Origin: Neocallimastix sp. 'constans'
Lineage: Eukaryota
NCBI GenBank assembly: GCA_050613775.1
Contig: JBODTK010000115.1
Coordinates: 1-64,000 of the forward strand
DNA length: 64,000 nt
Direction: 5' to 3'
Under the pieces are notes generated by a model. That model had not been told where the DNA came from. It did not search any database and was given only the letters and a program-made list of their open reading frames with translations. Positions 8,521 through 40,256 of the stretch are shown here, in pieces; the first letter of the stretch is position 1; every line of letters begins with the position of its first letter. Both the position numbers and the translations under genes were made by a program.

Positions 8521-8532
8521 GCGGGGAGATTA

Positions 8533-19612: not shown

Positions 19613-21017
19613 TGATACGGGCTGGGGTTGAAACACTAAGATATTCAAAACAAAAAAATAAATATTAACACATAACTATAAAAACAAATTTGGAAACAAG
19701 AAAAAAATTAAATTTTAAAATATTCGTTATTTAAATTTAAAATTAAAATTATTTGTTCCAAGTATTAAAAAGAAAGAAATTTATTCTTCTTTTTATACTT
19801 TTATTTTAATACATTTTATTTATTATTAATATATTCTTTATAAAAAAAACTATTATAACTATTTTATTTTAATTTTTAACTATTATTTTAAATTATTTTT
19901 TTAAAAAAAAAATAACATTTATTAAATTAAAATATAAAAAATTAATTTAGAGATTGTATCACGAAGGGCATTCCGGGCGGTAGCTTCTTCTTGATATTGT
20001 TTTTCAGAGAGAGAATTATACAGAATTGATATTTTCTGTATTTTAGATCATTTTTTATTATTGAAATTCTGTATTTTAGTTCATTTTTATTTTTAATAAA
20101 GATTTAATTTATTTTTGATTTTTGATTTATTTTTAGTTTATTTCAAAGGTTTAGAAAATATTATACAGAAACTTATAATTCTGTATTTTATATCAAATAT
20201 TTATTGAAATAGGTTTTTATTATTCTTAATATAAAAGTAAGAATTAATAATGATTTAAATATTATATAATTTTTAATAAGAATAATTTATTGAAATAGGT
20301 TTTTATTATTCTTAATATAAAAGTAAGAATTAATAATGATTTAAATATTATATAATTTTTAATAAGAATAATTTATTGAAATAGGTTTTTATTATTCTTA
20401 ATATAAAAGTAAGAATTAATAATGATTTAAATATTATATAATTTTTAATAAGAATATTTAATAATAATTTTTATTATATTTAATATTAATAAAAGAAATT
20501 TATAAGAATATTTAATAATAATTTTTATTATATTTAATATTAATAAAAGAAATTTATAAGAATATTTAATAATAATTTTTATTATATTTAATATTAATAA
20601 AAGAAATTTATAAGAATATTTAATAATAATTTTTATTATATTTGATATTAATAAAGGAAATTTATAAGAATATTTAATAATAATTTTTATTATATTTGAT
20701 ATTAATAAAAGATTTTAATAAGAATATTTAATAATAATTTTTTATTATATTTAATATTAATAAAAGATTTTTATTAGAATATTTAATAATTTTTATTATA
20801 TTTAATATTAATAAAAGAAATTTATAAGAATATTTAATAATAATTTTTATTATATTTAATATTAATAAAAGAAATTTATAAGAATATTTAATAATAATTT
20901 TTATTATATTTGTTATTAATAAAAGATTTTAATAAGAATATTTAATAATAATTTTATTTTATTATTATTAAGAGTATTTAATAGGAAATACAAGGTATTT
21001 AGTGACACCCCGTATCA
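19613..21017 (-). mobile_element. Solo LTR, family L1, TSD TAAC
   Basis: Reverse complement of the element A LTR; TAAC at 19609-19612 and 21018-21021; extra 86-bp triplication at about 20201-20455. Confidence 0.92.
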
Positions 21018-21021
21018 TAAC

Positions 21022-21528
21022 TGATATGATATTTTTTTTAAACATCAATATCAATATTTATTTTATTTTATTTGGACGATAACAGTAGGGAATAATTGAC
21101 AAAATAATATATTCTAATATTATATAGAATAATACACACAATAATAATATTCACACTTTAATATTTAGTTTATTTATTTTATTTATTTATTATCATTCAT
21201 CAATAAAAATACATCATCAATATAAATAGTTGTTAACTAGTTAAAATATAATTAAATCATTCAATAAAATATAATTAATTACTAAAATCTCTCATATTAT
21301 TAATGTAAACTAAATATAAAACTACACTAAACTATACTAATAAACATGTTTATAGGTTAAATTATTAATAAAGCTAAATTAATATTAATAAAAGAACCAT
21401 TCTTTAAACTATTATTATTTACTAACTATATATACTATTATTAAATTATTATTAACCAATAAGATTTTATCAAATAATTCCTAACCTAAGTTTCACTAAA
21501 TTATGGTATTTATGGTGGTACCGTATCA
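21022..21528. mobile_element. Solo LTR, family L3, TSD TAAC
   Basis: TGATATG...CCGTATCA termini; TAAC on both sides. Confidence 0.75.
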
Positions 21529-21533
21529 TAACG

Positions 21534-22489
21534 TGTAATAATCATACTAAGATCTAATACTAAATATGATTATTAACTTCAACTTAATGACTAATTCATT
21601 AAGTTGAGAAATAAAATAAAAAAAAAAATTTTACCTAAAAAAGAGTTTATTATAAAATTAATTATAATAACAACACAAAAACCAAAGGAAGAAATATTTG
21701 TATAAAGTTAAAGTTGGTTTTAAAAAATATGTTTTTGAATAAAATATTTTATTAATTTATAAAAATTTAGAATGTAATATTGTTATCATTATAACTATCT
21801 TTTATATAATAATAACTTTTGATTTCTTAAAGAGAAATCAAGAGCCCTTTTTATATTTTTTTTAATGAATTAAGGTTAAATAAAAAGTTTTTCTAATCTT
21901 AAAAATTATCTTATCTAGAAAAAGATTAGAAGAAAAAACTAGATAAGTTTTTTGATCGATATTCTATTCATATCGATCATCGTATATATTAAGTAAAACC
22001 AAATATATTATTTTATATTTGGATAAAACCTTAATATATCGATTTTCTAAATTTTAATTTAGATCATCAAATAAAAGGAAAAATAAATAATAACCGGAAT
22101 GATCTAAATTATTCTATTTTTATAAATATTATTTTTGAAATCTAATCTAAACATATTAACATAAACTATCTTTAAAAAATACAGAAACTTATTAATTGTT
22201 CTTTTAAATGTACAATGTACAAAATAAATAAAACTAATGTTTACATTAACTTAATTAAATGAATAACTAAATAAAATTAATAATATTAATAAAAGTATAT
22301 ATAATAATTATTTAAATAAATTTTTTAATATTATTTTAGTGTATGAATAATTATATTTTTAATAAATTTGATTATAGTATTTCAATGTATGAATTAATTA
22401 AAATTTAAATAAATTTGTAATTATTATCAATAATTATAAAGACTAAGAAATAGTAATTATTTATTAATAAATAATTATTATTTCTAACA
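21534..22489 (-). mobile_element. Solo LTR S1 (element D-like group), TSD TAACG
   Basis: TGTAATA...TCTAACA; TAACG at 21529-21533 and 22490-22494; shares the structured module with the D LTRs. Confidence 0.82.
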
Positions 22490-22495
22490 TAACGA

Positions 22496-23461
22496 TGGTA
22501 GACTCGGGGTTAACACGTATAAATTTAAAATCAAGCAGGGGGGGGACGGGTATTACCCTGCTTTGATTTTAAATAAAAAAAAAATTTCTTTTTATTAAAA
22601 TTATTTATTAATATTAAATTTTATTTTTTTTTAAAGTACAAATATTTAATTTTTAAGAAATATTTACAATATTTATATTTTTTTATGAATTTAAAGTATA
22701 ATTAGTTGTTTATAATTTAAGTAATTTTATAGAATTATTGAATTAATTTTATATCAATAATTCATTTTTGTTTTAATTTTTATAAATATAATAATATAAT
22801 ATTCAAATATAATTTAATTAAAAATAATTATAAAATAAATATATAGAAAATAGTTTTTACTATTTTCTTTGATATTTTTAAGTTAAATAAATTGTTTTTA
22901 AAGATTAATATAATAAATTTAATAATCTTTAATTATTTTAAATAATACTTGTAATTATTTTCAAAATAAAATAAAATTTTTATAATATTTAATTAATAAA
23001 TTTGATAATATTTAAATAATAAATTTTTATAATAATTAATAATTTTTAATAATAATTTTTAATAATAAATTTAATTAATAATCTTAATAATTTTATAATA
23101 ATATTTAATAGTTATAATAAATAAATTTTTATAATAATATTTAATAATTTTAATAATTTTATAATATTAATAGTTTATAATAATTTTTATAATAATATTT
23201 AATTAATAATTTTAATAATTTAGTATCTTAAAAGTATAATTTTAATATTTACAATTGTATTTTAATATATACATAGATTTAATAATATACCAATAAAGTA
23301 ATTAATTAAAATTGATTTACATTATTTACAAATTAAAATTAATTTATATCAAAATAAATTAAAATTTATTATTAAGTTTAGGTTATCAAGAATTTAGGAA
23401 AGTACAATTTAGTAAAGAATTATTAATAATAAAATAAAGGTTATTAATTCATTCTTTACCA
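22496..23461. mobile_element. Solo LTR, family L2 (inverted relative to the 17434 copy), non-matching flanks ACGA/ATTT
   Basis: TGGTAGACTCGGGG...CTTTACCA; reverse complement of 17434-18448. Confidence 0.85.
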
Positions 23462-23465
23462 ATTT

Positions 23466-24295
23466 TGTTAAGGTTTTAGAGAATTAAATAAAAATAAAGT
23501 AAAGAAACACAAATTTTATTTATTTATTTATTATTTTATTTATTTATTTTATTAATTGATTTTATTCGATTTGATTTTATGGTTTTTAAAAATTGGTAGC
23601 AAAATTTACAACTATTTATACTTTTTTTTTCAAGGTATAAAAGTTGTTCTTGCCACTAAATTACATTTTATTATTATTTTTTTTTATATAAAAACTATTA
23701 AATTTAAATTGATTTTTATAATCAATTATATAAAATTTAATTATAACAATATAAATAAAATACATTTATAATATTAATAAAATTTTTTTTTTTTTTTTTT
23801 TTTTTAATAATCTATCTAAAATATTACTAATAAGAATTTATTTAATTGGCTATAATTTTTATTACAATCTGTTAAAATATTCAAATAAAAATAAAAATAC
23901 TATTCTAATATAAAGGTTTTTAATAAAATAAAATATTTTTCAATATAAAATAAAACATTTCGATATAAAATTTTATAATAAAAGTTAAAATATAATATAT
24001 AAATTTTTAATTATCAATATATAAAAATATTATTAATACAAATTTTCATTATTAATATAAAAACAAAAAAAATAAGATTTATTATTAATATTGCTAATAT
24101 AAGCTTTAAATATATAAAAATGTTACTATTAATAAAGATTTAATATAAAAATATAAAGTTTAATATAATTTTGATTTAATTTTTGATCTTTGGATTTAAA
24201 AATTTATTAAAGTACAAAAATAATAATGTACAATAATGTATTAGAAATAAATCGTAGATTTAATTAAGAATGCATTATTTAGTATATTCTTATCA
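23466..24295. mobile_element. Solo LTR, family L4, TSD ATTT
   Basis: TGTTAAGG...TCTTATCA; inverted near-identical copy at 26988-27816. Confidence 0.85.
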
Positions 24296-24298
24296 ATT

Positions 24299-26002
24299 TG
24301 TAATAGCTATACTAAAACTAAAATTAATTAATATAACTATTATCTACAATTTTAATATTATTTTTACATAATATTAAAATTGGGAAAATAAAAATTAAAA
24401 AATAAAAATTATACTTAAATTATGCCGAGTTTATTATAAGTAAATATAATAAACAATAACCAAGCTACAGTAGAATAGTAGTTGTAAATATTTTTAAAAT
24501 AATAAAAAAAAGCTTTTATGATTAATAATAGTTTTTGATATATCTATAAAAAATTTATTTTATTTGTTATTATTTATTATATTTTCTTAAAATAATAACT
24601 CTTGATTTCTCAAAGAGAATTCAAGAGTCCTATTTATATTTTTTTTTTAAAATCAATCGGTTAAATAAATTATTTTCTAATCTTAACAAAAAATCTATTT
24701 AGGAAAAGATTAGAAGAAAAATCTAAATAGTTTTTCGATCAATATTCTAATCATATTGATCATCATATAATTAAAGAAAACCTATTTGTTAGGAAAAACA
24801 TTAATTACCGATTTTCTAATTTAATTATTAAAATATTAAATATTGATAGGAAAAAAAAAGATTTTTTTTTTTTTTTTTCATTTAAAAAATAAAGATTAAA
24901 TAATATGATAGATTAGATACATTTATAGTTTATAATACATTATAAAATACATAATTCATTTTAATTAAAATAACTAATATTTTTTATGGTAAAATATTAA
25001 ATACAAATTTACATAATTTTTTGTAAAAATTCTATTTAAATGAATAATAATAATATGTAAATAAATTTTATATTATTTATATAAATGTATAAATTATAAT
25101 ATGTAAATAAATTTAGATCAATATATGAAAATATAACTATTAAATAAATTTATAAGTTAAAATCAATGAATATATTAATTATTATTTAAATAAATATTTT
25201 TTAAAAATAATTATTATTTTATAAATAATTATAAATTATTAATTATTTTTCATTAATTATATGTTAAAATTAAGATATAAAATAGTTTTATGATTAATAA
25301 TGTTACTAGGTTAATATGTTGAATTATATATTAATAATCCAACAATAATTAATTAATAATAATATAATTAAAATAATATAAGATAAATAGTTAAGTTATT
25401 TAAACACTTAATATCTAAGAATATTTTAAATAATAATTTCTTTGAAGGATTTATGAAAATATTTATTTATTGAATTATTAGTATATAATTATTGTAAATA
25501 CAATAACCTTACAAAGAAAATAAAAGATAGATTTTTACATCTTTCTTTTATACTTTGTAAGTTACATAATAATACTATTTAATTATAAGATAATAATAAT
25601 ATAGTAAAATGAATATTAATAAAATATTAAAATAATAGCAATATCGATATGTTTAAAATATTTAATATAATTTAATAAATTTAATTTGTATAATTAATTT
25701 GAATAATTAAAAATAGTAATTAATATATATGATATAAACATATATATAAACATAATATAAATAAATACATGTGACGTCATATGTAAATAATTGAAATTAT
25801 AAATATAAATCTTATTTATTAATATTTTCAGAATTATTAGGCCTAAGATAATTCTTTAAATATTAAATAAGAATTTATATTAATTATTAATTAAATGTAT
25901 ATTGAAATGTGAATAACTGAAATTGAGATTTCAATTCAGTTATAATTTCAACATTATAAGAAATATTAATTATTCATTATTGAATAATTATGATTTCTTA
26001 CA
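24299..26002 (-). mobile_element. Solo LTR S2 (D-like group; long, may contain a further insertion), TSD CAATT
   Basis: TGTAATAG...TTCTTACA; CAATT at 24294-24298 and 26003-26007; structured module at about 24595-24812. Confidence 0.72.
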
Positions 26003-26007
26003 CAATT

Positions 26008-26981
26008 TGTAATAATTTAATTATAAAATGTAATTAAATTATTAATCATTAATATTAGCTCTAACTGCTAATATTAAGGATTAGAAAAGAATCATACTTA
26101 CCTATGATTCAAATCTAATTACTTGGAGTTTATTATAGCAAATATAATAAACGAAACACTAAACTCAGAAAGAGAGCCGGTTTATATTTTGTGAAATTCT
26201 TTTATTAAACAATTTATTTTTTATTAATATAAAAGTAATTAAAAATATTTATTTTAATATTATTGTTATTATTATTATTTATTATATTTGTTATAATAAT
26301 AACTCTTGATTTCTCAAAGAGAACTCAAGAGCCTTATTTATACTTTTTTGTCAAAATAAGGTTAAAATCAAAAGGGGTTCTAATCTTAACAATTCTCTTA
26401 TCTAGGAAAAGATTAGATAGAAAAACCTAGATAAGCTTTTGATCGATATTCTATCCATATCGACCATCGTATTAATTAAATAAAACCAATTACTTTATGG
26501 AAGTAATTGGAAAAACCTTAATTAACCGATTGGTTAATCTAATCTAATGATCGAAAATAAAAGAACAAAAATAAAAGATATTTCGATCATATAAATATGA
26601 ATTTACATATAAGGAAAACAATATATAAATAACATTAAATTATGTATTAAGCAAAATATAAGATACATTATAAAATACAGAATACATTATACAATATAGA
26701 GTAATGTTTTAGTTACATAGTTTAACTAAATTACTAAACTAATAAATTTAATATCTAAATGAATAATTAAATAAATTATTATTATTATTTAAATGTATAA
26801 AATCTATTTATCTAAATAATTTTCTAATACTAAATTAAATAAATATTTAATATAATATTAAAAATAAAATATTAATTATAATTAAGTGTACGAAAGTAAT
26901 ATGATCTAAATAAAGTTATATTATTATAACTTAACTAAGAAAATATAATTATTTTGTTAAAAATAATTATAGATTCTTACA
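26008..26981 (-). mobile_element. Solo LTR S3 (D-like group), TSD CAATT
   Basis: TGTAATAA...TTCTTACA; CAATT at 26003-26007 and 26982-26986. Confidence 0.85.
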
Positions 26982-26987
26982 CAATTT

Positions 26988-27816
26988 TGATAAGAATGTA
27001 CTAAATAATGAATTCTTAATTAAATCTACGATTTATTTCTAATACATTATGTGTACATTATTATTTTTGTACTTTAATAAATTTTTAAATTCAAAGATTA
27101 AAAATTAAATTCAAAATTATATTAAACTTTATATTTTTATATTAAATCTTATATTAATAGTAATATTTTTATATATTTAAAACTTATATTAACAATATTA
27201 ATAATAAATCTTATTTTTTTTATTTTTATATTAATAATGAAAATTTGTATTAATAATATTTTTATATATTGATAATTAAAAATTTATATATTATATTTTA
27301 ACTTTTATTATAAAATTTTATATCGAAATGTTTTATTTTATATTGACAAATATTTTATTTTATTAAAAACCTTTATATTAGAATAGTATTTTTATTTTTA
27401 TTTGAATATTTTAACAGATTGTAATAAAAATTATAGCCAATTAAATAAATTCTTATTAGTAATATTTTAGATAGATTATAAAATAAAAAAAAAAAAAAAA
27501 AAAAAGGTTTTATTAATATTATAAATGTATTTTATTTATATTGTTATAATTAAATTTTATATAATTGATTATAAAAATCAATTTAAATTTAATAGTTTTT
27601 ATATATAAAAAGAAAATAATAATAAAATGTAATTTAGTGGCAAGAACAACTTTTATACCTCGAAAAAAAAAGTATAAATAGTTGTAAATTTTGCTACCAA
27701 TTTTTAAGAATCATCAAAAAAATTAATTAATAAAATAAATAAATAAAATAATAAATAAATAAATAAAATTTGTGTTTCTTTACTTTATTTTTATTTAATT
27801 CTCTAAAACCTTAACA
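26988..27816. mobile_element. Solo LTR, family L4 (inverted copy), TSD ATTT
   Basis: TGATAAGA...CCTTAACA; reverse complement of 23466-24295. Confidence 0.85.
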
Positions 27817-27819
27817 ATT

Positions 27820-28860
27820 TGATACGGGCTGGGGTTGAAACACTAAGATATTCAAGCAAAAAAAATAAATATTAACACATAACTATAAAAATAAATTTGG
27901 AAACAAAAAAAAAAAATTATTTTAAAATATTCTTTATTTAAATTTAAAATTAAAATTATGTGTTCCAAGTATTAAAAAGAAAGAAATTTATTCTTCTTTT
28001 TATACTTTTATTTTAATACATTTTATTTATTATTAATATATTCTTTATAAAAAAACTATTATAACTATTTTATTTTAATTTTTAACTATTATTTTAAATT
28101 ATTTTTTTAAAAAAAAAATAACATTTATTAAATTAAAATATAAAAAATTAATTTAGAGATTGTATCACGAAGGGCATTCCGGGCGGTAGTTTCTTCTTGA
28201 TATTGTTTTTCAGAGAGAGAATTATACAGAATTGATATTTTCTGTATTTTAGTTCATTTTTATTTTTAATAAAGATTTAATTTATTTTTGATTTTTGATT
28301 TATTTTTAGTTTACTTCAAAGGTTTAGAAAATATTATACAGAAACTTATAATTCTGTATTTTATATCAAATATTTATTGAAATAGGTTTTTATTATTTTT
28401 AATATAAAAATAAGAATTAATAATGATTTAAATATTATATAATTTTTAATAAGAATATTTAATAATAATTTTTATTATATTTAATATTAATAAAAGATTT
28501 TTATTAGAATATTTAATAATAATTTTTATTATATTTGATATTAATAAAAGATTTTAATAAGAATATTTAATAATAATTTTTTATTATATTTAATATTAAT
28601 AAAAGATTTTAATAAGAATATTTAATAATAATTTTTTATTATATTTAATATTAATAAAAGATTTTAATAAGAATATTTAATAATAATTTTTATTATATTT
28701 AATATTAATAAAAGAAATTTATAAGAATATTTAATAATAATTTTTATTATATTTGTTATTAATAAAAGATTTTAATAAGAATATTTAATAATAATTTTAT
28801 TTTATTATTATTAAGAGTATTTAATAAGAAATACAAGGTATTTAGTGACACCCCGTATCA
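27820..28860 (-). mobile_element. Solo LTR, family L1, TSD AATT
   Basis: TGATACGGG...CCCGTATCA; AATT at 27816-27819 and 28861-28864. Confidence 0.92.
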
Positions 28861-28863
28861 AAT

Positions 28864-29722
28864 TGTAAGAATCTATAATTATTTGTTAGCAAATAATTAT
28901 ATTTTCTTAGTTAAGTTATTATAACTATAACTTTATTTAATTACATATAATATTTATTAAATTTATTTAATTTAATTTTAAATATTCATTAATTTAACAA
29001 AATTTATTTAATTAATTTTAAATAATATATTTACAATATGTTAAATTCTCTACTGTAACTAATGTATTCTGTATTGTATTGTATTCTGTATTTTATAATG
29101 TATTGTGTATTTTATTAACTATTTAATTTTATATTTTTAATATAAGGATAAATTATATGATCGAAATATCTTTTATTATTTTATTCTTTTATTTTCGATC
29201 ATTAAATTAGATTGGAAAATCGGTTAATTAAGATTTTTTCCAATTACTTTTTAGAAGTAATCGGTTTTACTTAATTAATGCGATGATCGATATGGATAGA
29301 ATATCGATCGAAAACTTATCTAGGTTTTTCTATCTAATCTTTTCCTAGATAAGAGATTTGTTAAGATTAGAAAACCCTTTCTTATTTAACCTTATTTTAA
29401 TAAAAAAATATAAATAAGGCTCTTGAGTTCTCTTTGAGAAATCAAGAGTTATTATTATATAAAAATATAGTTATAATAGTAACAATTTTATATTTTTAAC
29501 CTTAATAAATTAATAATATATTTTATTCAAAAAACATATTTTAAAATTAAATTTATACAAACAATTCTTCTCTTACTTCTCGTGTTATTATTATATCAAT
29601 TTTATAATAAACTCTAAAGGTAAAACATATTTATTTTATTTTATTTTCTCAACTTAATGAATTAGTCGTTAAGTTGTAGTCAATAATTCTATTTTGAGTT
29701 AGTTCTTAATAGAATTATTACA
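28864..29722 (+). mobile_element. Solo LTR S4 (D-like group, opposite orientation), TSD CAAAT
   Basis: TGTAAGAA...TTATTACA; CAAAT at 28859-28863 and 29723-29727; module reads as the reverse complement of S3. Confidence 0.85.
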
Positions 29723-29727
29723 CAAAT

Positions 29728-30201
29728 TGTAAGAAATTACTTATAAAATTAATTATAAATAATTTCTTAACTACAAATTAACATTAATTATTACTAATTA
29801 ACATTAATTTGAGAAAATAAAATTAAATATAATTAAATAAATATAAAATAATATAAATAAATAATTATACTTAACTTAAATATAAGATAGAGTTTATTAT
29901 AGAAAGTTTATAATAAACAATAACACAAAAGGAATAAAAGACACAAATATTTATAAAATATGTTTTATTAAAAGGGTTTTGTTTTATTAATTAATTATTT
30001 TATTTGAATTATTATTTATTATAAAAATTCTAAAATAATAACTCTTGATTTCTCGAAGAGAACTCAAGAGAATCAAATATATATAAATTAATAATTAAAT
30101 ATTATTGGTTAAAATAAATACAATAATTTAATGTATTAAATTAATGTATTAAATAAGAAAGATAGATAAATTTTTTAATAAATTTATCTAAGTTTCTTAC
30201 A
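29728..30201 (-). mobile_element. Short, internally deleted solo LTR S5 (D-like group), TSD CAAAT
   Basis: TGTAAGAA...TTCTTACA; keeps the ATAATAACTCTTGATTTCTC hairpin but lacks the ENE/pseudoknot part. Confidence 0.75.
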
Positions 30202-31013
30202 CAAATGTAATAATTTCTATAAATTATAGAAATTATTATTTATAATTAATATTAACTAAACTATTAAGATTAATTAAAAAATAAAATAAAAATTAAAATA
30301 AAAATAAGAATTTAATACTTATCTTTAAAATTAGAGTTTATTATAAGAAAATATAATAGACCTTAAATGAAAAGAGAAATAAAATAAAATATGTTTTTAT
30401 TAAAAGAACTTTATTAATTTATTTTATTATTAAATATTTTATTATTATTTTTTTTTGACAAATTTTAAAATAACTATTTTATATTAATTGAAATATTAAT
30501 GTCTTTTATTGTTATTATATTTTTCTTAAAATAATAACTCTTGATTTTCTAAAGACGAAAATCAACAGCTATTTATATTTTTTACAAAAGTAAATGGATT
30601 TTTCTAATCTTAACAATGATTCTTTCCAGAAAAAGATTAGAAGAAAAAACTGGAAAGATTTTTGATCAATAATCTATACTTATTGATCATCGTGTTATTA
30701 AATAAAACCAATTATAATTAATCGGGAAAACTTTAATAACCGATTTTAATAACTAAAAGAATTAAAAAGAAAAAAGGATAAAAAAGAGAAGGATAAAATA
30801 ATGCAGAAATTTTATTGAATACATTTTTTCTATGAAATAATACAGAAGTTATATTAAATACATTTTTTCATATAACAATTAATACATTAATTGGTATAAT
30901 TGATTTTAAATGAAATAAATTTTTAATGAATAATAATTATGAAATAATTATTAATTAATAAGAAATAGAAATAAATTATAAAAATTTATATCAATTTCTT
31001 ACATTGCACCTCC

Positions 31014-34000
31014 TTATGATGCATCCACTAGTTCCGGATTTCTTTTTGTATAAGGCTCCAACTGGGAAACATGAAATACCGGATGTAAATGTAGATTTTC
31101 TGGAAAATCTAAACGGTAATTCATTCTCTCCCTCACTTCCAAAACTCTAAACGGCCCAAGATATTGTGAAGAAAGTTTTTTGGATGGCTCATTTGTAAAA
31201 TAATATCTTTTTAGCCATACAAAATCATTTACTTTGAATGAAGGTCCTGTAGCTTTCTTCGAATCTCCAAACTTCTTAAAATTTTCTTTAGCTTTTTGTA
31301 AGTGTCTCTTCAATGCTTCGAAATGTGAGGACCAATCCCTGGTTAAAGCGGAAGCATTATTCTTTAGAAGAACAGGAGGCGACTCTATAGTACAGGAAGG
31401 ATTAAAGCCATAATTAACAAAGAATGGTAATTTACCTATGGACTTATGCAGGGAGTTGTTATAGGCCATTTCACATAAAGGAACATAATAACACCATTCA
31501 TTTTGGGACGTTGAACAATAACATCGGAGATACTGCTCAATTACTGAATTTGCACGCTCAATTTGTCCATTGGATTGTTGATGGTGAGCTGTGGCAAGTC
31601 TTGGATTAGCGTTAATAGCAGAGCACAACGAAGTCCAAAATTCTGATGAAAATTGAGAACCATGGTCCGAAACAATTATTTTAGGGAATCCATGGTAGCG
31701 AAAAACATTGAATAGAAGCATTTTGGCCGTCAGATCAGCGGAGGGAACATCAGAACAAGGAACAAGGTGAATCATTTTGGTCAGATGGTCAGCTACAACC
31801 ATTAAACATGTACAATCTTGCGAGCTGGGAAGTGAAGTGATAAAGTCAACGCTAATTATTTCCCAAGGTCTACTGGGAACCAGTAAAGGTTGTATTTTAC
31901 CATATGGCTTGTGTCTTCGGAGCTTATTTCTTCCACAAACATCGCATGAGGATATGTAATTCTTGATATCTTTTTTCATATTTGGCCACCAATAATTTCT
32001 TCTTAATTTTTCAAAAGTTTTATCTACTCCTTGGTGACCATTAGTTGGACCATCATGATATATTTTCAATACCTTGGCCTTGAGTGAAGAAGGGACAATT
32101 ATTCGGTTCTGAAAATGCAGAACCCCTTCGACGATGGTAAAAAGCGAACTTTTTACTTCATTTGACCTTGTTTTAATTTTATTGAGTGTATCCTTACAGT
32201 ATGTGTCAGACTTCTGAGCTTCAATTAAGGCTTTTAAGTTGTCAGAAGGTGCACAACAAAATATCTCTTCATCTAACAGAGGATAACCTTCATTGGTCGA
32301 ATCCTTGTTGACGTAATCGGGGCGTCTTGACAAAGAGTCAGGTTTACCACTCTTAATACCGGAGCGAAATGAAATCCTATAAGTGAACTTTGAGAGAAAG
32401 AGACTCCGTCTAATTTGTCTTTGGTTTAATTTTTGAGGTTGCTTAAAATATAACAGATTTCTGTGATCTGTGACTACTTGTACTGGAAATTTAGCACCTT
32501 CTAGGTGATGGCGCCAGGTTTCAAAAGCTACGATTATTGCAAGTAATTCCTTGTCATAAATAGTATAATTGATTTCAGCAGAAGACAAGGACCTAGAGTA
32601 GAAAGCAACCGGATGGAGTTTATTGTCTTTGTTACTAATTTGAGATAAAACACAACCAACAGCGAAATTGCTAGCGTCAGTTTCTACAAAGAATTCTTTC
32701 TCTGGATCTGGATAAACTAGGATTTCTTCCGTCGTAAAAGCTTCTTTGAGTTTGTTGAAAGCATTGTCTGCCCTAACATCCCAAATGAAGGAAGAGTTCT
32801 TCTTCAAAAGCCGACGGAGAGGTTCAATGATCTCGGCAAAATTATTTATAAACTTCCTATAGAAGTTACAAAGTCCTAGAAACCCTTGGAGTTCTTTAAT
32901 ATTTTTTGGGATAGGCCAGTCGATAACAGCTTTAACCTTATTCCTGTCCAATGAAAGACCATTTACAGACACCACAAACCCTAAAAAAATAGTTTCTTTA
33001 ACGTGAAAATCACATTTTTCCAATTTCACGTAAAGACCATTTTTAATTAGAAGCGACAATATTTTACGAACATGCTGAATATGTTCGTCCAAACTTTTTG
33101 AATAAATTATTATATCATCCAAGTATACTTGAACAAATATGCCAATTGCATCAGATAAAACATCCTGGATGAATCTTTGAAACACCGAGGGGGCATTTCT
33201 TAGGCCAAAGGGCATTACTAGATATTCAAATTGGCCTAAAGGTGTTCTAAAAGCAGTTAAATATTTATGACCTTCTTTAACGCGGACAAGGTTATACGCA
33301 GATCGAAGGTCCAAACGAGTGAATATTACTGCCCCCTTAAACGATTCAATCAAGTCAACCAATCTTGGGATAGGGTAGCTATTCCTAATAGTAATAGAAT
33401 TTAATTTCCTATAATCAACGCAGAGTCGTAAGCTTCCATCTTGTTTTTTTACAAACAGGACAGGGGCACCAGCAGGTGATTTTGACTTCCTTATAAACCC
33501 CTTATCTAAATTTTCTTTTAAATAATTTTTAAGAGCTTCCATTTCGACAATCGTAAGAGAGTACACAGGTCCATAATATAATTGACCACCAGGGACTAGG
33601 TCAATTGATATATCATATTCACGATGTGGAGGCAATTTGTCTGCCTCTTTCTTTTCAAATACAATTTTCAAATCTTGATAGTATATGTTGATAATTTCAT
33701 CTTTATCAGTTTCATTTACTAAAGCGGCGCAAATATCTATATCAAAAAGTTCGTCACCAGATATTGAGTATGTTTCTGTTTTATCTTTTGATACATTGTT
33801 GTTTTCGTTGTTTGACAAAATTGCGGCAGTAACATCTTTAGAGTGAAAAATGAATTTATTCCCTTTTGCTGAAGGGCAGTGATTTCCGCAGTGGTTCTCT
33901 AAAAAGTAAATCTTATTATTTTTGAAGTCTACGTATGGCATATGAATACTCAACCAATCTCTTCCAAGGATGGCTGATATTCCCTGAAGTTGTAAGGTAG

Positions 34001-34343
34001 CTACGTAGAATTCATAGCTTTCCTTGTGGTCCATGAAGGCAAGGCCTAATTTCTTCGTTACTTGTCTTATATTCATACTTTTGTTGTTCGGTAACTGAAT
34101 GTTCAATGGTGAAGACAAGGTAGATAATTGAATTCTGTTGGCGTTTACAAAGTCTCTACAGATGTAACTTCTTGCAAAACCAGAATCAATAAGGACGTTT
34201 ATTTTCATTTTCTTTCCATTATTATTTAATATAAATGTAGTGGTCATTGAATTTGAGGTGTTTGGTGTATAGTTAGCCGAAAGGATGCTTTCTTTGTTTT
34301 GATTTTTTCTGAATTTCTTGTGTACTTTGTTGTTCTTGAATTC
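31014..34343 (-). CDS. pol: Pol of element D (PR, RT, RNase H, IN; no chromodomain)
   Basis: VLIDSG, LPPHREYD, SKSPAGAPVLFVKK, YLDD, ETDAS, WEIISVDF, SDHGSQF, GPF, HPVFHVSQL. The frame is open back to the gag stop. Confidence 0.93.
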   Translation of the reverse strand, partial: EFKNNKVHKKFRKNQNKESILSANYTPNTSNSMTTTFILNNNGKKMKINVLIDSGFARSYICRDFVNANRIQLSTLSSPLNIQLPNNKSMNIRQVTKKLGLAFMDHKESYEFYVATLQLQGISAILGRDWLSIHMPYVDFKNNKIYFLENHCGNHCPSAKGNKFIFHSKDVTAAILSNNENNNVSKDKTETYSISGDELFDIDICAALVNETDKDEIINIYYQDLKIVFEKKEADKLPPHREYDISIDLVPGGQLYYGPVYSLTIVEMEALKNYLKENLDKGFIRKSKSPAGAPVLFVKKQDGSLRLCVDYRKLNSITIRNSYPIPRLVDLIESFKGAVIFTRLDLRSAYNLVRVKEGHKYLTAFRTPLGQFEYLVMPFGLRNAPSVFQRFIQDVLSDAIGIFVQVYLDDIIIYSKSLDEHIQHVRKILSLLIKNGLYVKLEKCDFHVKETIFLGFVVSVNGLSLDRNKVKAVIDWPIPKNIKELQGFLGLCNFYRKFINNFAEIIEPLRRLLKKNSSFIWDVRADNAFNKLKEAFTTEEILVYPDPEKEFFVETDASNFAVGCVLSQISNKDNKLHPVAFYSRSLSSAEINYTIYDKELLAIIVAFETWRHHLEGAKFPVQVVTDHRNLLYFKQPQKLNQRQIRRSLFLSKFTYRISFRSGIKSGKPDSLSRRPDYVNKDSTNEGYPLLDEEIFCCAPSDNLKALIEAQKSDTYCKDTLNKIKTRSNEVKSSLFTIVEGVLHFQNRIIVPSSLKAKVLKIYHDGPTNGHQGVDKTFEKLRRNYWWPNMKKDIKNYISSCDVCGRNKLRRHKPYGKIQPLLVPSRPWEIISVDFITSLPSSQDCTCLMVVADHLTKMIHLVPCSDVPSADLTAKMLLFNVFRYHGFPKIIVSDHGSQFSSEFWTSLCSAINANPRLATAHHQQSNGQIERANSVIEQYLRCYCSTSQNEWCYYVPLCEMAYNNSLHKSIGKLPFFVNYGFNPSCTIESPPVLLKNNASALTRDWSSHFEALKRHLQKAKENFKKFGDSKKATGPSFKVNDFVWLKRYYFTNEPSKKLSSQYLGPFRVLEVRERMNYRLDFPENLHLHPVFHVSQLEPYTKRNPELVDAS

Positions 34344-35009
34344 CTATTTTGGATGCTCATCTCTTTTTCTTTTTTGCGACTTGTTGGTTGACTTATTTGT
34401 TTTGGCTAGGTTGTTAATATAACATTTTTTATCGATGCTGATGATTGAATTTGTTGCTTCAAAAAGGGTCTTTGGTCTTTCGATTTTATCGAACTCCAGA
34501 CGAACCTCCTCAAGAAGGCCTCTCCGGATAAGGTCAATAAAAACATCGTCGTTCCAACCAATTCTTGACGCTAATCTTCTGAATTCAATAGTGAAGAAAG
34601 CTGCCTTTCCGAGGTGAAGCTGTTTAAGGTTCAAAAGTTCTTCAATTAAAACAAACCTTTGTTCCTTTGTATCTCCAAAATTTTCTAACAATAACCTCTT
34701 AAATTCCTCATAGGTGAGAGAATTAAGTGTTCCATCAGCCTTGAGAGATAATCCCCATTTTTTAGCTGGTCCATAAAGTTTGCTGATAACGAAAGCGTTT
34801 CTAAAGTCGTCACTTGGGAACGAATTGGCATGTTCATCAAAGAACAATTCACACTGTTCCGTTAGTTCGTTTAGATTAAGCTTTGTGTTGTCTTCATTGC
34901 GGGCCAACACACCGTTAGGTGAAAAAAATGTTGGAATAAATTCGGTAATTGCAGAAATTAATTTTGACGCTTCAGCTTCCTTAGTAGCTTCCATACTGGT
35001 TGAATTCAT
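34344..35009 (-). CDS. gag: Gag of element D (retrotransposon capsid)
   Basis: FVISKLYGPAKKW...F...L...F and LLNLKQ...FTIEFRRLASRIGWND match the gypsy Gag pattern; same frame as pol. Confidence 0.88.
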   Translation of the reverse strand: MNSTSMEATKEAEASKLISAITEFIPTFFSPNGVLARNEDNTKLNLNELTEQCELFFDEHANSFPSDDFRNAFVISKLYGPAKKWGLSLKADGTLNSLTYEEFKRLLLENFGDTKEQRFVLIEELLNLKQLHLGKAAFFTIEFRRLASRIGWNDDVFIDLIRRGLLEEVRLEFDKIERPKTLFEATNSIISIDKKCYINNLAKTNKSTNKSQKRKRDEHPK

Positions 35010-35879
35010 TAAAATACTAAATAGACTTTTTTAATATAATAGAACTTTAATATATCTTTAATATATCTTTAATATATCTTTAAAATATTTTTAAAATATC
35101 TTTAAAATATCTTTAAAATATCTTTAAAATATCCTTTAAAATATGTATATAATTGTTAAATATAAATTATTTATATTAATAATAGAAATTTATAACTTCG
35201 GAGTCTAGAAGAACACTTCCAATATTTTAACAAAAATGAGCATTTCCGACCAATTTTCCAGAAGCCCCTGAGTTTGAGTGATAGTATGCGCTATACGACC
35301 AGCTTGCCTATTAATGGTGTCTTGTTGCCGCGCGCACCACGATTGCAATCTGTTTACCATTAAAACAGACCAGTTCAGAGCCTCCCGCACAGCTTGTCGT
35401 GAAGGGTAAACTTAATCCGGAAATCACTCAGTTACAAGACTCAGGCTACTCCTGCTTCTAAAGTTCGTACTAATTCTCATTATATTGTTTATTTTTGGAA
35501 ATAACTTCTAGAATCCTTTATTATAAATTAATATTTTTAAATATAAAAAATTTAATTATTAGTATAATTTATAGTATATGATTTACGTATTTATTATTAT
35601 TGTTATTGTTATAATTATTTTATTTAATAATATAATTATATTATCTACTAGTATATACAATTTAATTTATATAATTATAATTTACTATTAAAATTTTTTT
35701 TTTTTTTTTTTTTTTTATTATATTATTTATTTATCTGATTGGAAAAAATAATAATTTTTTTTTTTTTTTTTTTTTCTTTAATATTATTTATTTATTTATT
35801 TGATCGGATAAAATAATTTTTTTTTTTTTTTTTTTACTTTTGTACTACAATATCATAATACAATTAACTAATTACCTAG

Positions 35880-35891
35880 AAGAGTTATTAT
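35880..35891 (-). promoter_or_regulatory. Self-priming primer-binding site of element D
   Basis: Minus-strand ATAATAACTCTT abuts the 5' LTR and is complementary to AAGAGTTATTAT at 36225-36214 in the LTR, about 30 nt downstream of TATAAATA. No TGG tRNA-type PBS. Confidence 0.78.
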
Positions 35892-36703
35892 TGTAATAAT
35901 TTCTATAAATTATAGAAATTATTATTTATAATTAATATTAACTAAACTATTAAGATTAATTAAAAAATAAAATAAAAATTAAAATAAAAATAAGAATTTA
36001 ATACTTATCTTTAAAATTAGAGTTTATTATAAGAAAATATAATAGACCTTAAATGAAAAGAGAAATAAAATAAAATATGTTTTTATTAAAAGAACTTTAT
36101 TAATTTATTTTATTATTAAATATTTTATTATTTTTTTTTGACAAATTTTAAAATAACTATTTTATATTAATTGAAATATTAATGTCTTTTATTGTTATTA
36201 TATTTTTCTTAAAATAATAACTCTTGATTTTCTAAAGACGAAAATCAACAGCTATTTATATTTTTTACAAAAGTAAATGGATTTTTCTAATCTTAACAAT
36301 GATTCTTTCCAGAAAAAGATTAGAAGAAAAAACTGGAAAGATTTTTGATCAATAATCTATACTTATTGATCATCGTGTTATTAAATAAAACCAATTATAA
36401 TTAATCGGGAAAACTTTAATAACCGATTTTAATAACTAAAAGAATTAAAAAGAAAAAAGGATAAAAAAGAGAAGGATAAAATAATGCAGAAATTTTATTG
36501 AATACATTTTTTCTATGAAATAATACAGAAGTTATATTAAATACATTTTTTCATATAACAATTAATACATTAATTGGTATAATTGTTTTTAAATGAAATA
36601 AATTTTTAATGAATAATAATTATGAAATAATTATTAATTAATAAGAAATAGAAATAAATTATAAAAATTTATATCAATTTCTTACACAAATTTATTTGAT
36701 AAT

Positions 36704-36910: not shown

Positions 36911-38681
36911 TTAAAAATAAAATTATTTAATTAAAAAAAAAGTCTTAAAAAACATGTTTATATAATAAAATATTAATTAAGTAATTATTTCAAAATATAT
37001 AATAATTATTTATAGTTACATGTTTATTATTTATTACTTAAATAATAAATACTTTTTTGATTATTTTCTATTTAACTATTTTTTTTTTTTATGTTTATTT
37101 TTTTTTTTTTTATTTTTATTCTTATTTTTTTTTGCCGCTAAATTAATAAAAAAAAAACGAAAATGTATATAATATAATTTAATATATTTTTAATTAATTT
37201 AATATAATTCTTGCCGTTAACCATTAAAAGAAGTTTAATTATTATTATTTTATTTTATTTTTTTTTTATAAAATTTTTAATAAATAATAAAATAATCAAG
37301 AATAAAGAGAAAAAAAATTATAAAAAATAATATATATGAAAATAAATATAATATATATAAATAAATATAATATGGATTAATATAAATAATATTTATAAAT
37401 AATAAAATTTTTTTTGTATTATTTTCTTTATTTGTTTTTTGGACGGATGATATGAAAAGAAGAAAAAAAAATTATTTAAATTAAAAATAAATTAAATATA
37501 AATTAAATATAAATTAAATTAAAAATAGAATAAAAAATGAAATTGAAACTTTTATTAATTTCTTAATAATAGTACGTATAATAACAACAAAATACCAGAA
37601 GATACAGTAAAAAATAACAAATATAGATATATAAATTTTATAAATTATAAATTTGATATAATAATAAATGTTATATTCTTATATCATCAATAATTAATCG
37701 AATAATAAATAAATAATAAATAAATATAATATAATTCATTTGCAATAATTATAATTAATTCTATTTATTATAATATAATAATAATATAAATATAATAATA
37801 ATATAAATATAAAATAACATTAAGTATAATATAAATGTATAATGTAAATGTATAATAATGTAATGTATAGTAATAATAATAATAATAATAAATAAAGTTT
37901 TAGTACTTCAAATGAAAAACCATAAAAGGAAAAAAAGATTTTTTACATTGACCAAAAATTTATAAATTTGGTTTTTAATTTAAATAAATAAAATAATATG
38001 TGAATAAATAAATAAATAGTATGATTTATAAATAAATAAATAAATAGATAAATAAATAAATAGTATGATTAATAAAATAAATAAATAAATAATTTAATTA
38101 TTTAATTATTAAAAAAAAAAAAAAAAAGAAATAAAAGTGGTACAAAATTTATTTATATTAAATTTTTTTTTTCTTTTTTTAATATTTTATTTTATTATAT
38201 TTTTTTCAATTAAAAGAAAAAACAGTACAACTATCATAAATACAATAAAGAAAAAAAAAAAAAATTTTTGTTTTTAAAAATTAAATTAAATAAATTAAAT
38301 ATTTAATGTATATAAATAATTATCATTTTTCTTCATTTTAACAATTTTCCTTTATTTTCTTTTTTTTTTTTATTTTATTTTATATTTAAATTTAAATTTT
38401 GTAAAATAGTAATAAAAATAGGTTATAAATAATTAAATAAATAAATAAAAAGAATTATTTGTATATACATTATTTATATTTGTATATTTTTATTATAATT
38501 TTTATTAATATATAATAACAATTTGTATAATTCAACCAAATTACATTTTTATTATTACTATAATTTTTTTTTATAACATTATAAATTCTAATATTGAGAT
38601 AAAAAGATATTTAGATAAATAAATAAATAAATAAATAAATAACAGTTAAATAATATTTTAAAAAATTTTTAAATTTAAAAA

Positions 38682-40256
38682 ATGAAATTATTACAAATAA
38701 TTCCATTCTTATTTTCAGTGACATCCACTACACTTGCTCAAAGTTTCTGTAGTGCCACTGGTCACTCAGGTCAAAGTATAAATGTTAATGGTAATAAACT
38801 TGGTAAAATAGGTAATGTTAATTATCAGTTATGGGCTGATAGTGGTAATAATAGAGCTACTTTCTATTCTGATGGTTCTTTCTCTTGTGGTTTCGAGAGA
38901 GCTGGAGATTATTTATGTCGTACTGGTCTTTCCTTTGAGGGTGCAAGAACTCCATCACAAATTGGTCGTATTAAGGCTGATTTTAAAGTGAAAAAAGAAA
39001 GTGTCAGTAATGTTGGTTATTCCTACATTGGTATTTATGGTTGGACTAAAAATCCTCGTGTTGAATGGTATATCGTGGATGACTGGCTTTCAAAGGAAAG
39101 ACCAGGGGATTGGATTGGTAATCAAAAAAAGGGTGACTTTACCATTGATGGTGCTGAATATACTGTTTATAGAAATCAACGTGCAGATCTCACTCAATAT
39201 TTCAGTCTTCGTAAGGTGGGTCGTGATTGTGGTACCATCGATATTTCAGCTCACTTTGATCAATGGGAAAAACTTGGTATGACAATGGGTACCCTGGATG
39301 AAGCTAAAGTTTTAGCTGAAATTGGAAATGGTAACGGTGGGGTCACCGGTACCGTCGATTTCCCTTACGCTAAAGTTTATCTTGGTAATGCTAGTGAAAG
39401 TAGTAGTCCTTCTACTTCTACTACTACTACTCCAGCACAATCTGTTGGTCAAGATCAAACTCAAGGTCAAACTCAAGGTCAAACACAACCACCTGCTCAA
39501 AATGCTCCAACTCAAAACCAACCACCTACTCAAGCACCACCAACTCAAAATGCTCCAACTCAAAACCAACCACCTACTCAAGCTCCATCAACTCAAAATG
39601 TTCCAGTTCAGGCTCCACCCACTCAAGCCCCACCACCACAAAATAATAATGGTGCTGGTAATCCATGGGGTAGTGGTGGCGGTAATCCATTTGATAATGC
39701 AGGCGGAAATCCATGGGGTAACGCTGGAGGTAATCCATTTGGTAACGGAGGAGGTAATCCATTTGGTAACGGAGGAGGTAATCCATTTGGTAACGGAGGT
39801 GGTAACCCATTTGGTAACGGAGGAGGTAATCCATTTGGTAACGGAGGTGGTAACCCATTTGGTAACGGAGGTGGTAACCCATTTGGTAATGGAGGTGGTA
39901 ATCCATCAAATAATGCTGCTCCCGGTGGTGGTAATCCATGGTCTATGTGGGGAAATGGAGGTAATGCACCAGGTTGGCCTACACCAAATAATGCAGCTCC
40001 ATTAAATCCAGGTGGTGCTCCAGGTGCTCCAGGGGGTATCCCTGGTTTTGGTCAAGGTATGGGTCCAGCTCCAATTAAATTTGCTACATCATCAGCGGTT
40101 AACTCTTCCACCAATAATAAATCCGATGGTAAATCCAATGGTAAATGTGCAGCAACTTGGGCTCAATGCGGTGGTGAAGGATTTAAGGGACCAAATTGTT
40201 GTACCAGTGGTAATTGTAAAATCATTAATAAATATTACCATCAATGTAAACCATAA
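38682..40256 (+). CDS. Secreted GH11 xylanase-like protein with low-complexity linker and C-terminal CBM1
   Basis: Signal peptide; GH11 motifs SYIGIYGW, VEWYIVD, GTIDISAHFDQW, EAKVLAE; Q/P/T and GGGNPFGN linker; CBM1 WAQCGGEGFKG...C...C..INKYYHQC. Intronless. Confidence 0.93.
   Translation: MKLLQIIPFLFSVTSTTLAQSFCSATGHSGQSINVNGNKLGKIGNVNYQLWADSGNNRATFYSDGSFSCGFERAGDYLCRTGLSFEGARTPSQIGRIKADFKVKKESVSNVGYSYIGIYGWTKNPRVEWYIVDDWLSKERPGDWIGNQKKGDFTIDGAEYTVYRNQRADLTQYFSLRKVGRDCGTIDISAHFDQWEKLGMTMGTLDEAKVLAEIGNGNGGVTGTVDFPYAKVYLGNASESSSPSTSTTTTPAQSVGQDQTQGQTQGQTQPPAQNAPTQNQPPTQAPPTQNAPTQNQPPTQAPSTQNVPVQAPPTQAPPPQNNNGAGNPWGSGGGNPFDNAGGNPWGNAGGNPFGNGGGNPFGNGGGNPFGNGGGNPFGNGGGNPFGNGGGNPFGNGGGNPFGNGGGNPSNNAAPGGGNPWSMWGNGGNAPGWPTPNNAAPLNPGGAPGAPGGIPGFGQGMGPAPIKFATSSAVNSSTNNKSDGKSNGKCAATWAQCGGEGFKGPNCCTSGNCKIINKYYHQCKP
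39661..39940 (+). repeat. 24-bp coding tandem repeat (GGGNPFGN)n
   Basis: GGTAACGGAGGWGGTAAYCCATTT units; about 7 perfect units plus degenerate NPW/NPF flanks. Confidence 0.92.

What the first reader, a model, noticed from the sequence alone, without database searches (positions are those of the whole stretch)
21891..36427. Covarying RNA module in D-type LTRs: ENE-like U-rich loop, hairpin and H-type pseudoknot
Seen in six LTR copies (21891-22043, 24675-24812, 26378-26531, 29219-29373, 30602-30744, 36285-36427). On the element sense strand there are three parts. (1) Stem-UUUU(U/C)-CC..upper stem..GG-UUUU(A)-stem, with the upper stem changing sequence but staying paired. (2) Hairpin GATCGATAT/ATATCGATC vs GATCAATAT/ATATTGATC vs GATCAATAA/TTATTGATC. 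(3) Interleaved stems: invariant TCTAATCTT/AAGATTAGA with a covarying partner CTTATCTAG/CTAGATAAG, CTATTTAG/CTAAATAG or TCTTTCCAG/CTGGAAAGA, and U-rich loops. G-U pairs in the S3 and D copies fall on the sense strand. Known: ENEs (KSHV PAN RNA; plant and fungal transposons) clamp the poly(A) tail in a U-A.U triple helix. Inference: this is a 3'-UTR (U3) stability or replication module. I do not recognise the ENE plus U-rich pseudoknot combination.
Basis: partly seen in the sequence, partly recalled or inferred. Interest (0 to 1): 0.82.

Follow-up and report, generated by a model that had tools for sequence, protein, structure and literature searches.

The report
Poly(A) clamp plus telomerase-like pseudoknot
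The end-repeats of a family of jumping genes, likely from an anaerobic gut fungus, share a conserved folded-RNA cassette in which a hairpin shaped like a known poly(A)-tail clamp sits next to a predicted knot resembling the one in telomerase RNA, and together they likely protect the element's RNA from decay.

Summary
Six LTR copies (five distinct sequences: both LTRs of one young Ty3/gypsy element plus four solo LTRs of sister families) carry a ~150-nt island. It has an ENE-shaped hairpin (U4-6/U4 internal loop), a 9-bp hairpin, an A-rich linker and two interleaved stems. 12 of 48 pairs change on both sides (0 of 500 shuffles reach this). The second pseudoknot stem never varies, so the knot is inferred, not shown by covariation. 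A TATA box and a Tf1-type self-priming motif 35 nt apart lie downstream in 5 of 5 LTRs, which puts the module in U3, i.e. the 3' UTR. New here: loop 1 (UUCU) matches the purine strand (AAGA) as a telomerase-type triplex, leaving two U·U layers that the end of the poly(A) tail could fill. ENEs in fungal LTRs are known, and the scan noted ENE-like LTR hairpins in two other genomes. I found no ENE-plus-pseudoknot in seven paper searches or Rfam, but could not read the key ENE survey. No homologues outside the window were obtained, and RNA contigs hardly cover the module. Verdict: new variant of a known kind; function untested.

The parts
30206..36686 (-).
   Evidence: LTRs 794 of 796 aligned bases identical; gag, protease, RT, RNase H, integrase and SH3 Pfam hits
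30206..31003 (-). 3' LTR (798 bp); its module copy is the one predicted to be transcribed
30689..30744 (-). ENE-shaped hairpin: 4-bp helix, bulged A, 9-bp lower stem, G.A, U4C/U4 internal loop, CC/GG-closed upper stem
   Evidence: z -4.4
30664..30688 (-). 9-bp hairpin with 7-nt GNNUAGA loop
   Evidence: 2 of 9 pairs change on both sides, 100% of cells paired
30659..30663 (-). A-rich linker (4-6 A in the five sequences)
30603..30658 (-). Predicted H-type pseudoknot: stem 1 30658-30650 / 30629-30621; loop 1 30649-30642; stem 2 30641-30633 / 30611-30603; loop 2 30632-30630; loop 3 30620-30612
   Evidence: stem 1: 5 of 10 pairs change on both sides; stem 2: 9 of 9 invariant
30570..30577 (-). TATA-like box, 35 nt before the self-priming motif in 5 of 5 LTRs
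30531..30573 (-). Fourth hairpin spanning the inferred U3/R border; it would mask the 3' copy of the primer motif (30542-30531)
   Evidence: (z -6.6)
31014..35030 (-). gag (35030-34344) and pol (34343-31014); the stop between them is peculiar to this copy
   Evidence: a 99% identical relative is one 1331-aa ORF; a different base is read at 34346 in 4 of 4 runs
35880..35891 (-). Primer-binding site, complementary over 12 nt to the LTR motif at 36225-36214 (Tf1-type self-priming; marks the inferred RNA 5' end)
36286..36427 (-). Module copy in the 5' LTR (35892-36686); upstream of the inferred start site, so predicted not to be transcribed
21892..22043 (-). Module in solo LTR 21534-22489 (target duplication TAACG)
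24676..24812 (-). Module in solo LTR 24299-26002 (target duplication CAATT); weakest folder, 8-bp stem 1
26379..26530 (-). Module in solo LTR 26008-26981 (target duplication CAATT)
29219..29371 (+). Module in solo LTR 28864-29722 (target duplication CAAAT)

Best explanation
The module is a conserved folded-RNA cassette in the LTRs of a Ty3/gypsy family, inferred to lie in the 3' UTR, that likely guards the RNA's 3' end: an ENE-shaped loop would clamp the poly(A) tail and a predicted telomerase-type triple-helix pseudoknot would act as a second guard. Shown: the sequences, the helices, paired changes in four of five helices, the conservation island, and the TATA box and primer motif downstream. 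Inferred: (1) transcription starts at the self-priming motif, so the module appears only at the 3' end, about 70-220 nt before the R region; (2) the U4-6/U4 loop binds about four A residues of the tail as U.A-U triples and slows deadenylation, as for Evade and PAN; (3) stems 1 and 2 form together, loop 1 lying in the major groove of stem 2 with up to four triples (U.A-U, U.A-U, C+.G-C, U.A-U); (4) two U.U layers at the stem junction have no intramolecular A and would either take the last A residues of the tail or stay empty, the knot then serving as a mechanical barrier to 3'-5' decay.
For: Paired changes: 12 of 48 pairs, 0 of 500 shuffles, and 0-3 when partners are slid (some columns reflect gap placement). 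In stem 1, 4 changes on one arm meet 4 on the other (p = 0.008); in the hairpin 2 meet 2 (p = 0.028). Three coupled 1-bp deletions keep the register. Conservation island: 52-64% of positions invariant, against 14-38% in all other 50-nt windows of the LTR except the one holding the primer motif. U3 location: TATA-to-primer spacing is 35 nt in 5 of 5 LTRs, and the PBS is the 12-nt complement of that motif. ENE shape: U tracts face each other in 5 of 5, closed by two C-G pairs above. Reviews place ENEs inside LTRs of plant and fungal elements (PMC13541005), and an ENE raises Evade RNA stability and mobility (PMC12501189). Pseudoknot: stem 2 / loop 1 of 9 bp and 7-8 nt, against 9 and 8 in human telomerase RNA (PMC5224487). 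Loop 1 has one more U than the Watson-Crick strand in 5 of 5, and its invariant UUCU is the parallel Hoogsteen match of the invariant AAGA. The sense strand folds 2-6 kcal/mol better than the antisense in 5 of 5.
Against: Only five sequences; no homologue was found outside the window. Stem 2 never varies, so nothing shows that it pairs. The first pair under the ENE loop is G-C in 3 of 5, G-U in 1 and A-U in the youngest element, and none has a run of three G-C pairs, although flanking G-C pairs were essential in Evade. RNAalifold prefers a rival fold in which the A linker pairs with loop 1 and stem 1 is lost. RNA contigs of two studies stop at 31009 and 31005, just before the LTR, where the DNA run goes on: a weak hint against, though GC content drops there. 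A related short LTR (29728-30201) has the primer motif and target duplications but no module. Four loop-1 triples leave 0-1 nt to cross 5 more base pairs, so not all four can coexist with a fully closed stem 2 (inference). The poly(A) site is not mapped.
Confidence: 0.5

Rival explanations
1. The folds are real RNA structures but serve replication or transport, not tail protection: a compact hairpin-linker-pseudoknot domain that binds Gag, reverse transcriptase or an export factor, or helps first-strand transfer.
For: Fixed lengths (9-bp hairpin, 7-nt loop, 5-6-nt linker, 18 nt from stem 1 to stem 2 in 5 of 5) suggest tertiary packing. The hairpin loop GNNUAGA can pair with the 5' arm of stem 2 at 5-7 of 7 positions, a possible switch (read). 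Ty1 uses structured RNA signals for reverse transcription (search listing PMC3592414; details recalled).
Against: It does not explain two facing U tracts between two stems, which is the ENE signature. The module-less short LTR was apparently integrated.
Confidence: 0.25
2. The ENE and the hairpins are real, but there is no pseudoknot: the two invariant 9-mers are inverted DNA binding sites of a promoter factor in U3, and stem 1 is a plain hairpin with a pyrimidine loop.
For: Stem 2 is invariant. The arms are exactly 30 nt apart in 5 of 5 and lie 34-46 nt before the TATA box, the one deviation being about one helical turn. They contain a GATA-like core (factor preference recalled, not from a call).
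Against: One arm sits precisely in the loop of a covarying stem and the other 9 nt after it, the H-type geometry (chance p 0.003-0.024 per copy). The U-run register and the UUCU/AAGA match have no DNA-level reason.
Confidence: 0.15
3. The hairpin-pseudoknot domain is a self-cleaving or small-ligand-binding RNA; the empty U.U layers would bind an adenine-bearing ligand as in the SAM-II riboswitch.
For: SAM-II has a U.U.A(SAM) triple in a triple helix (PMC13541005 passage). Ribozymes occur in retroelements (recalled).
Against: No Rfam match at gathering score in the window, and only two unrelated weak matches at E up to 10 in 29150-31010. Cleavage in U3 would cut off the R region needed for strand transfer (inference).
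Confidence: 0.05
4. The stems are by-products: template switching perfects quasi-palindromes in an AT-rich, palindrome-rich genome, without selection on RNA structure.
For: The window is full of long inverted repeats, and fold-back copying gives two-sided changes without selection (established mechanism, recalled).
Against: The island is conserved while flanks fall to 50-65% identity in most pairs. Loops, bulge, G.A pair and spacings are kept, and A-U / G-U / G-C series occur at two positions.
Confidence: 0.03

Closest known systems
Single-domain ENE of KSHV PAN RNA and the ENEs of plant and fungal transposable elements (Tycowski, Shu and Steitz 2016; seen only through reviews PMC7583470 and PMC13541005)
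   Same: U-rich internal loop between two stems, G-C pairs closing one side, near the inferred 3' end of an intronless LTR-element RNA; ENEs embedded in LTRs are reported
   Different: Lower stem is A-U rich and 13-14 bp with a bulge; the hairpin is followed at fixed spacing by a second hairpin and a U-rich pseudoknot, not mentioned in the texts read; host is likely an anaerobic gut fungus
Evade (Copia93) ENE of Arabidopsis and double-domain ENEs such as TWIFB1 (PMC12501189, PMC13541005)
   Same: Retrotransposon 3' UTR, with possibly two U-rich sites for the tail
   Different: Evade's motif lies between ORF and LTR with four U tracts in one stem-loop. Here one loop per hairpin, inside the LTR, and the candidate second site is built into a pseudoknot
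Telomerase RNA pseudoknot (human and Kluyveromyces lactis; PMC5224487)
   Same: H-type knot with pyrimidine loop 1 along a purine-led stem-2 strand; 9-bp stem 2 with 7-8-nt loop 1; possible C+.G-C triple and an A-poor last loop as in K. lactis
   Different: Only two A residues face four U residues, leaving two U.U layers; embedded in an LTR, not a stand-alone RNA; no Rfam telomerase match; likely convergent
MALAT1 / MEN-beta blunt-ended triple helix
   Same: U.A-U triples with a C.G-C triple from a genome-encoded purine strand
   Different: Purine strand is short and closes a pseudoknot; no tRNA-like element found; the RNA is expected to continue into R and be polyadenylated
Tf1/sushi group of self-priming Ty3/gypsy elements (PMC4600332, PMC6317226)
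   Same: PBS complementary to an LTR motif at the inferred RNA 5' end; Tf2-type SH3 domain
   Different: No chromodomain hit in this clade; LTRs of 0.8-1.7 kb carrying the RNA module

Membership tests
ENE (single domain) | Internal loop with U tracts on both strands, flanked by two stems | tested here: met
   U4-6 / U4 in 5 of 5; both stems fold and covary
ENE (single domain) | G-C pairs next to the loop, including an A-minor receptor stem | tested here: inconclusive
   Two C-G pairs above the loop in 5 of 5; below it the first pair is G-C in 3 of 5 and no copy has three G-C pairs
ENE (single domain) | Lies near the 3' end of a polyadenylated transcript | tested here: inconclusive
   U3 position inferred from TATA box and primer motif; poly(A) site not mapped; RNA contigs uninformative
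ENE (single domain) | Forms U.A-U triple helix with poly(A) and stabilises RNA | not testable with these tools
   needs probing, melting and reporter assays
Double-domain ENE | Two U-rich internal loops stacked in one hairpin | tested here: not met
   one loop per hairpin in 5 of 5
MALAT1-type ENE | Genome-encoded A-rich tract matching a G/C-interrupted U loop, with a tRNA-like element downstream | tested here: not met
   only an A4-6 linker, too short to reach the loop (inference); no tRNA in the window; no Rfam match
Telomerase-type triplex pseudoknot (fold) | H-type topology with pyrimidine loop 1 parallel to a purine-led stem-2 strand | tested here: inconclusive
   Sequence and geometry fit in 5 of 5; stem 1 covaries, stem 2 is invariant
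Telomerase-type triplex pseudoknot (fold) | Major-groove base triples actually form | not testable with these tools
   no RNA 3D tool; needs NMR, pH-dependent melting or triple-swap mutants
Telomerase RNA (membership) | Stand-alone RNA with template and TERT-binding domain | tested here: not met
   the knot is part of multi-copy LTRs; no Rfam telomerase match; a template was not searched for formally
Known self-cleaving ribozymes and riboswitches | Match to an Rfam covariance model | tested here: not met
   0 at gathering score; 2 weak unrelated matches at E 2.5 and 4.3
Tf1/sushi self-priming elements | PBS complementary to an LTR motif just downstream of the promoter | tested here: met
   12-nt complement, 35 nt after TATA

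The most novel reading that the evidence does not exclude
The pseudoknot is a new architecture of poly(A) clamp: a telomerase-like triplex with a deliberate gap. The last 2-4 A residues of the tail fill the U.U layers at the stem junction and stack end-on against the genome-encoded AAGA strand, capping the 3' end, while the upstream ENE grips the body of the tail. It would be a tandem ENE plus pseudoknotted ENE, invisible to hairpin-only ENE searches.
Probability: 0.22. Interest if true: 0.82.

Novelty: new variant of a known kind. Interest (0 to 1): 0.55.

Why it matters
The published ENE searches look for a stem-loop with a U-rich internal loop. If a pseudoknot can supply the same triplex site, a class of tail-protecting elements has been missed. 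A 56-nt A-U-rich cap for the poly(A) end would also be a simple tool for stabilising mRNA, useful in anaerobic fungi, which lack genetic parts. Even if the knot works otherwise, a telomerase-like triplex conserved across diverged LTR families is a small, directly testable RNA fold. If only the ENE holds, this extends a known element to another fungal lineage and is of modest interest.

Tried and rejected
More homologues for covariation: none obtained. The metagenome scan with a loops-only pattern gave 25 hits and a viral scan 2; none of the 27 showed the stems on inspection. Two stricter viral patterns gave 0. Protein-led scans gave 3 distant viral-collection elements and 3 loci in prokaryote genomes, two of them likely mis-binned fungal contigs without LTRs. 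Pattern, BLAST and model searches of those genomes found no module, nor did 31 genomes of the same family. The descriptors found nothing in 13 of the loci tested. The covariance model finds only its six training copies in the window; the next hit scores 17.7 bits. Expression: of 24 runs listed, 6 RNA runs hold the element. One lay call failed on a filter; in the other, three RNA runs cover the coding region at depth about 1-13. Cover of the module bins in two of them is explained by a 27-nt stray match; the third has a contig at depth 3.6 at 30578. Contigs show neither strand nor ends, and DNA may be in these libraries, so this neither supports nor refutes. Rejected: programmed read-through at the gag-pol stop (relatives are a single ORF); the A linker as the ENE's third strand (cannot reach the loop); any Rfam family. 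Papers not held: Tycowski 2016 and 2012, Torabi 2021 (two), Mitton-Fry 2010, Cash 2013. The ENE list in the supplements of Tycowski 2016 could include these elements and was not seen. Look-ups in the scan's notes by sequence, genome and relatives were empty.
Full report
Setting. The window is AT-rich (10-35% GC in 2-kb bins) and packed with LTR retrotransposons. The host is likely an anaerobic gut fungus. A GH11-CBM1 gene matches the xylanase CDBFV at E 5e-106 (that CDBFV is from Neocallimastix is recalled). One pol relative is named Orpinomyces, and the runs holding the element are mostly faecal metagenomes. No whole genome is held.

The element. Element D is a Ty3/gypsy on the minus strand, with LTRs at 30206-31003 and 35892-36686 that are identical at 794 of 796 aligned bases. 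It belongs to a clade of 18 listed protein clusters at 67-77% identity that have no chromodomain hit. The stop between gag and pol is peculiar to this copy. The other four module copies lie in solo LTRs of sister families with their own target duplications. The six copies are therefore five distinct sequences.

The observation. All three parts are present as described. On the sense strand each copy reads: 4-bp helix, bulged purine, 9-10-bp lower stem, U4-6/U4 internal loop, CC/GG-closed upper stem of 4-11 bp; a 9-bp hairpin with a GNNUAGA loop; an A4-6 linker; stem 1 (8-10 bp), loop 1 (U5-6CU), stem 2 (9 bp), loop 2, and loop 3 (9-10 nt, ending UU). Chance is excluded for the module as a whole: the loops-only pattern gives 6 matches against 0.00 expected, the ENE descriptor 6 against 1 in 15 shuffles, and the pseudoknot descriptor 6 against 8 in 15 shuffles. 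The module is a conservation island: 52-64% invariant positions against 14-38% elsewhere, except the primer-motif window at 68%. Pairwise identity is 76-89% against 50-82% in the flanks.

Covariation. On the five-row alignment, 12 of 48 pairs change on both sides; 0 of 500 shuffles reach this, and slid structures give 0-3. The tool warns that related sequences can beat its shuffles, and a few columns depend on gap placement, so I also tested ungapped arms. In stem 1, 4 changes on the 5' arm meet 4 on the 3' arm (p = 0.008); in the hairpin 2 meet 2 (p = 0.028). Three 1-bp deletions remove both partners, and three cells are broken: one U.U and two A.C. Stem 2 has 0 of 9 varying pairs, so the pseudoknot rests on geometry and on a chance level of 0.003-0.024 per related copy. 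The strand evidence is modest: 8 G-U against 2 A-C cells, and 2-6 kcal/mol better folding on the sense strand in 5 of 5. RNAalifold, which cannot draw knots, keeps stem 2 and pairs the A linker with loop 1 instead of stem 1; that rival helix has no two-sided change in its five linker pairs.

Where it lies in the RNA. The base after the 5' LTR begins a 12-nt complement of an LTR motif that is conserved in all five LTRs (one has a single change), and that motif lies 35 nt after a TATA-like box in 5 of 5. This is the Tf1-type self-priming arrangement, in which the PBS pairs with the RNA's 5' end (passages of PMC4600332 and PMC6317226). The start site is thus inferred downstream of the module, which makes the module U3 and present only in the 3' UTR. 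A fourth hairpin spans the inferred U3/R border and would hide the 3' copy of the primer. RNA contigs could not confirm this. They cover the coding region in 3 of 3 RNA runs laid (of 6 listed) but hardly the LTR, and two stop at 31009 and 31005, a weak hint against that low depth and the GC drop can explain.

How it likely works. Part 1 has the ENE shape. In PAN RNA such a loop binds poly(A) with five U.A-U and three A-minor triples (PMC7583470 section 3.4). In Evade it raises RNA stability and mobility and needs flanking G-C pairs (PMC12501189 parts 1-2 of 5). Here the upper closing pairs fit in 5 of 5 but the lower stem is A-U rich, a real deviation. Part 3 resembles the telomerase pseudoknot: human telomerase RNA has nine stem pairs and eight loop bases, and K. 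lactis has a C+.G-C triple and lacks A in its second loop (PMC5224487). In all five copies loop 1 has one U more than the Watson-Crick strand, and its invariant UUCU lies parallel to the invariant AAGA, which allows U.A-U, U.A-U, C+.G-C and U.A-U triples. That constraint would explain why stem 2 cannot vary. Between these layers and stem 1, two U pairs face only the UU end of loop 3, a gap that two A residues from outside would complete. I commit to a 3'-end guard (0.5): the ENE clamps the tail, and the knot either caps its last residues or blocks 3'-5' decay. Rivals are a replication or export signal (0.25), DNA promoter sites instead of stem 2 (0.15), a ribozyme or ligand binder (0.05) and unselected palindromes (0.03). 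A related short LTR lacks the module yet has target duplications, so the module may be dispensable or lost after insertion.

Comparison and novelty. ENEs in fungal transposons, including inside LTRs, are known (PMC13541005 passages and one section). The scan's notes list two ENE-like LTR hairpins from other genomes (unchecked). Rfam has no match. Seven paper searches listed nothing on an ENE joined to a pseudoknot or on LTR RNA structure in anaerobic fungi. The library lacks the primary ENE papers, so absence from print is not established. It works like an ENE cassette, passes the shape test for a single-domain ENE, fails those for double-domain and MALAT1-type ENEs and for telomerase RNA itself, and adds a predicted triplex pseudoknot. 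Verdict: new variant of a known kind, interest 0.55. The pseudoknotted-clamp reading has probability 0.22 and interest 0.82 if true.

Noticed in passing
window 24294-26986 and 28859-36691: LTRs of this group sit head to tail with one shared 5-bp target duplication (CAATT twice over; CAAAT over two solo LTRs and element D), and the rebuilt empty sites are centres of short palindromes. Suggests repeated, site-specific insertion at palindrome centres by an integrase without a chromodomain.
   Followed up: partly
window 35880-35891 and 36214-36225: Tf1-type self-priming signal: 12-nt PBS complementary to a conserved LTR motif 35 nt after TATA.
   Followed up: yes
window 30531-30573 and equivalents in six LTRs: Hairpin across the inferred U3/R border that would mask the 3' copy of the self-primer; re-sequenced but still paired in element D.
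   Followed up: partly
window 22050-22112, 26538-26600, 29150-29212: A further hairpin just upstream of the ENE in 3 of 5 LTRs, with a 24-29-nt U-rich loop and differing but paired stems (z -1.9 to -2.9); element D has only a pyrimidine tract there.
   Followed up: partly
window 29728-30201: Short 474-bp LTR with primer motif and fourth hairpin but no ENE or pseudoknot.
   Followed up: partly
window 34344-34346: In-frame stop between gag and pol in this copy only; relatives are a single ORF.
   Followed up: yes
window 38679-40256: GH11 xylanase with repetitive linker and CBM1, close to CDBFV, amid retrotransposons.
   Followed up: partly
L031, L032 (handle G001): A bacterial MAG holds several high-coverage Ty3/gypsy contigs, two from this clade at 61-69% identity: likely mis-binned fungal repeats.
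   Followed up: partly
window 8497-9900, 20414-21071, 28415-28914: Another repeat family with 54-nt tandem units ends right beside two of the LTR insertion sites.
   Followed up: no
window 30661, run X1: One DNA contig leaves the module after stem 1 into a different 9-bp hairpin whose loop also holds TTAGA; possibly another family variant (table 7).
   Followed up: no
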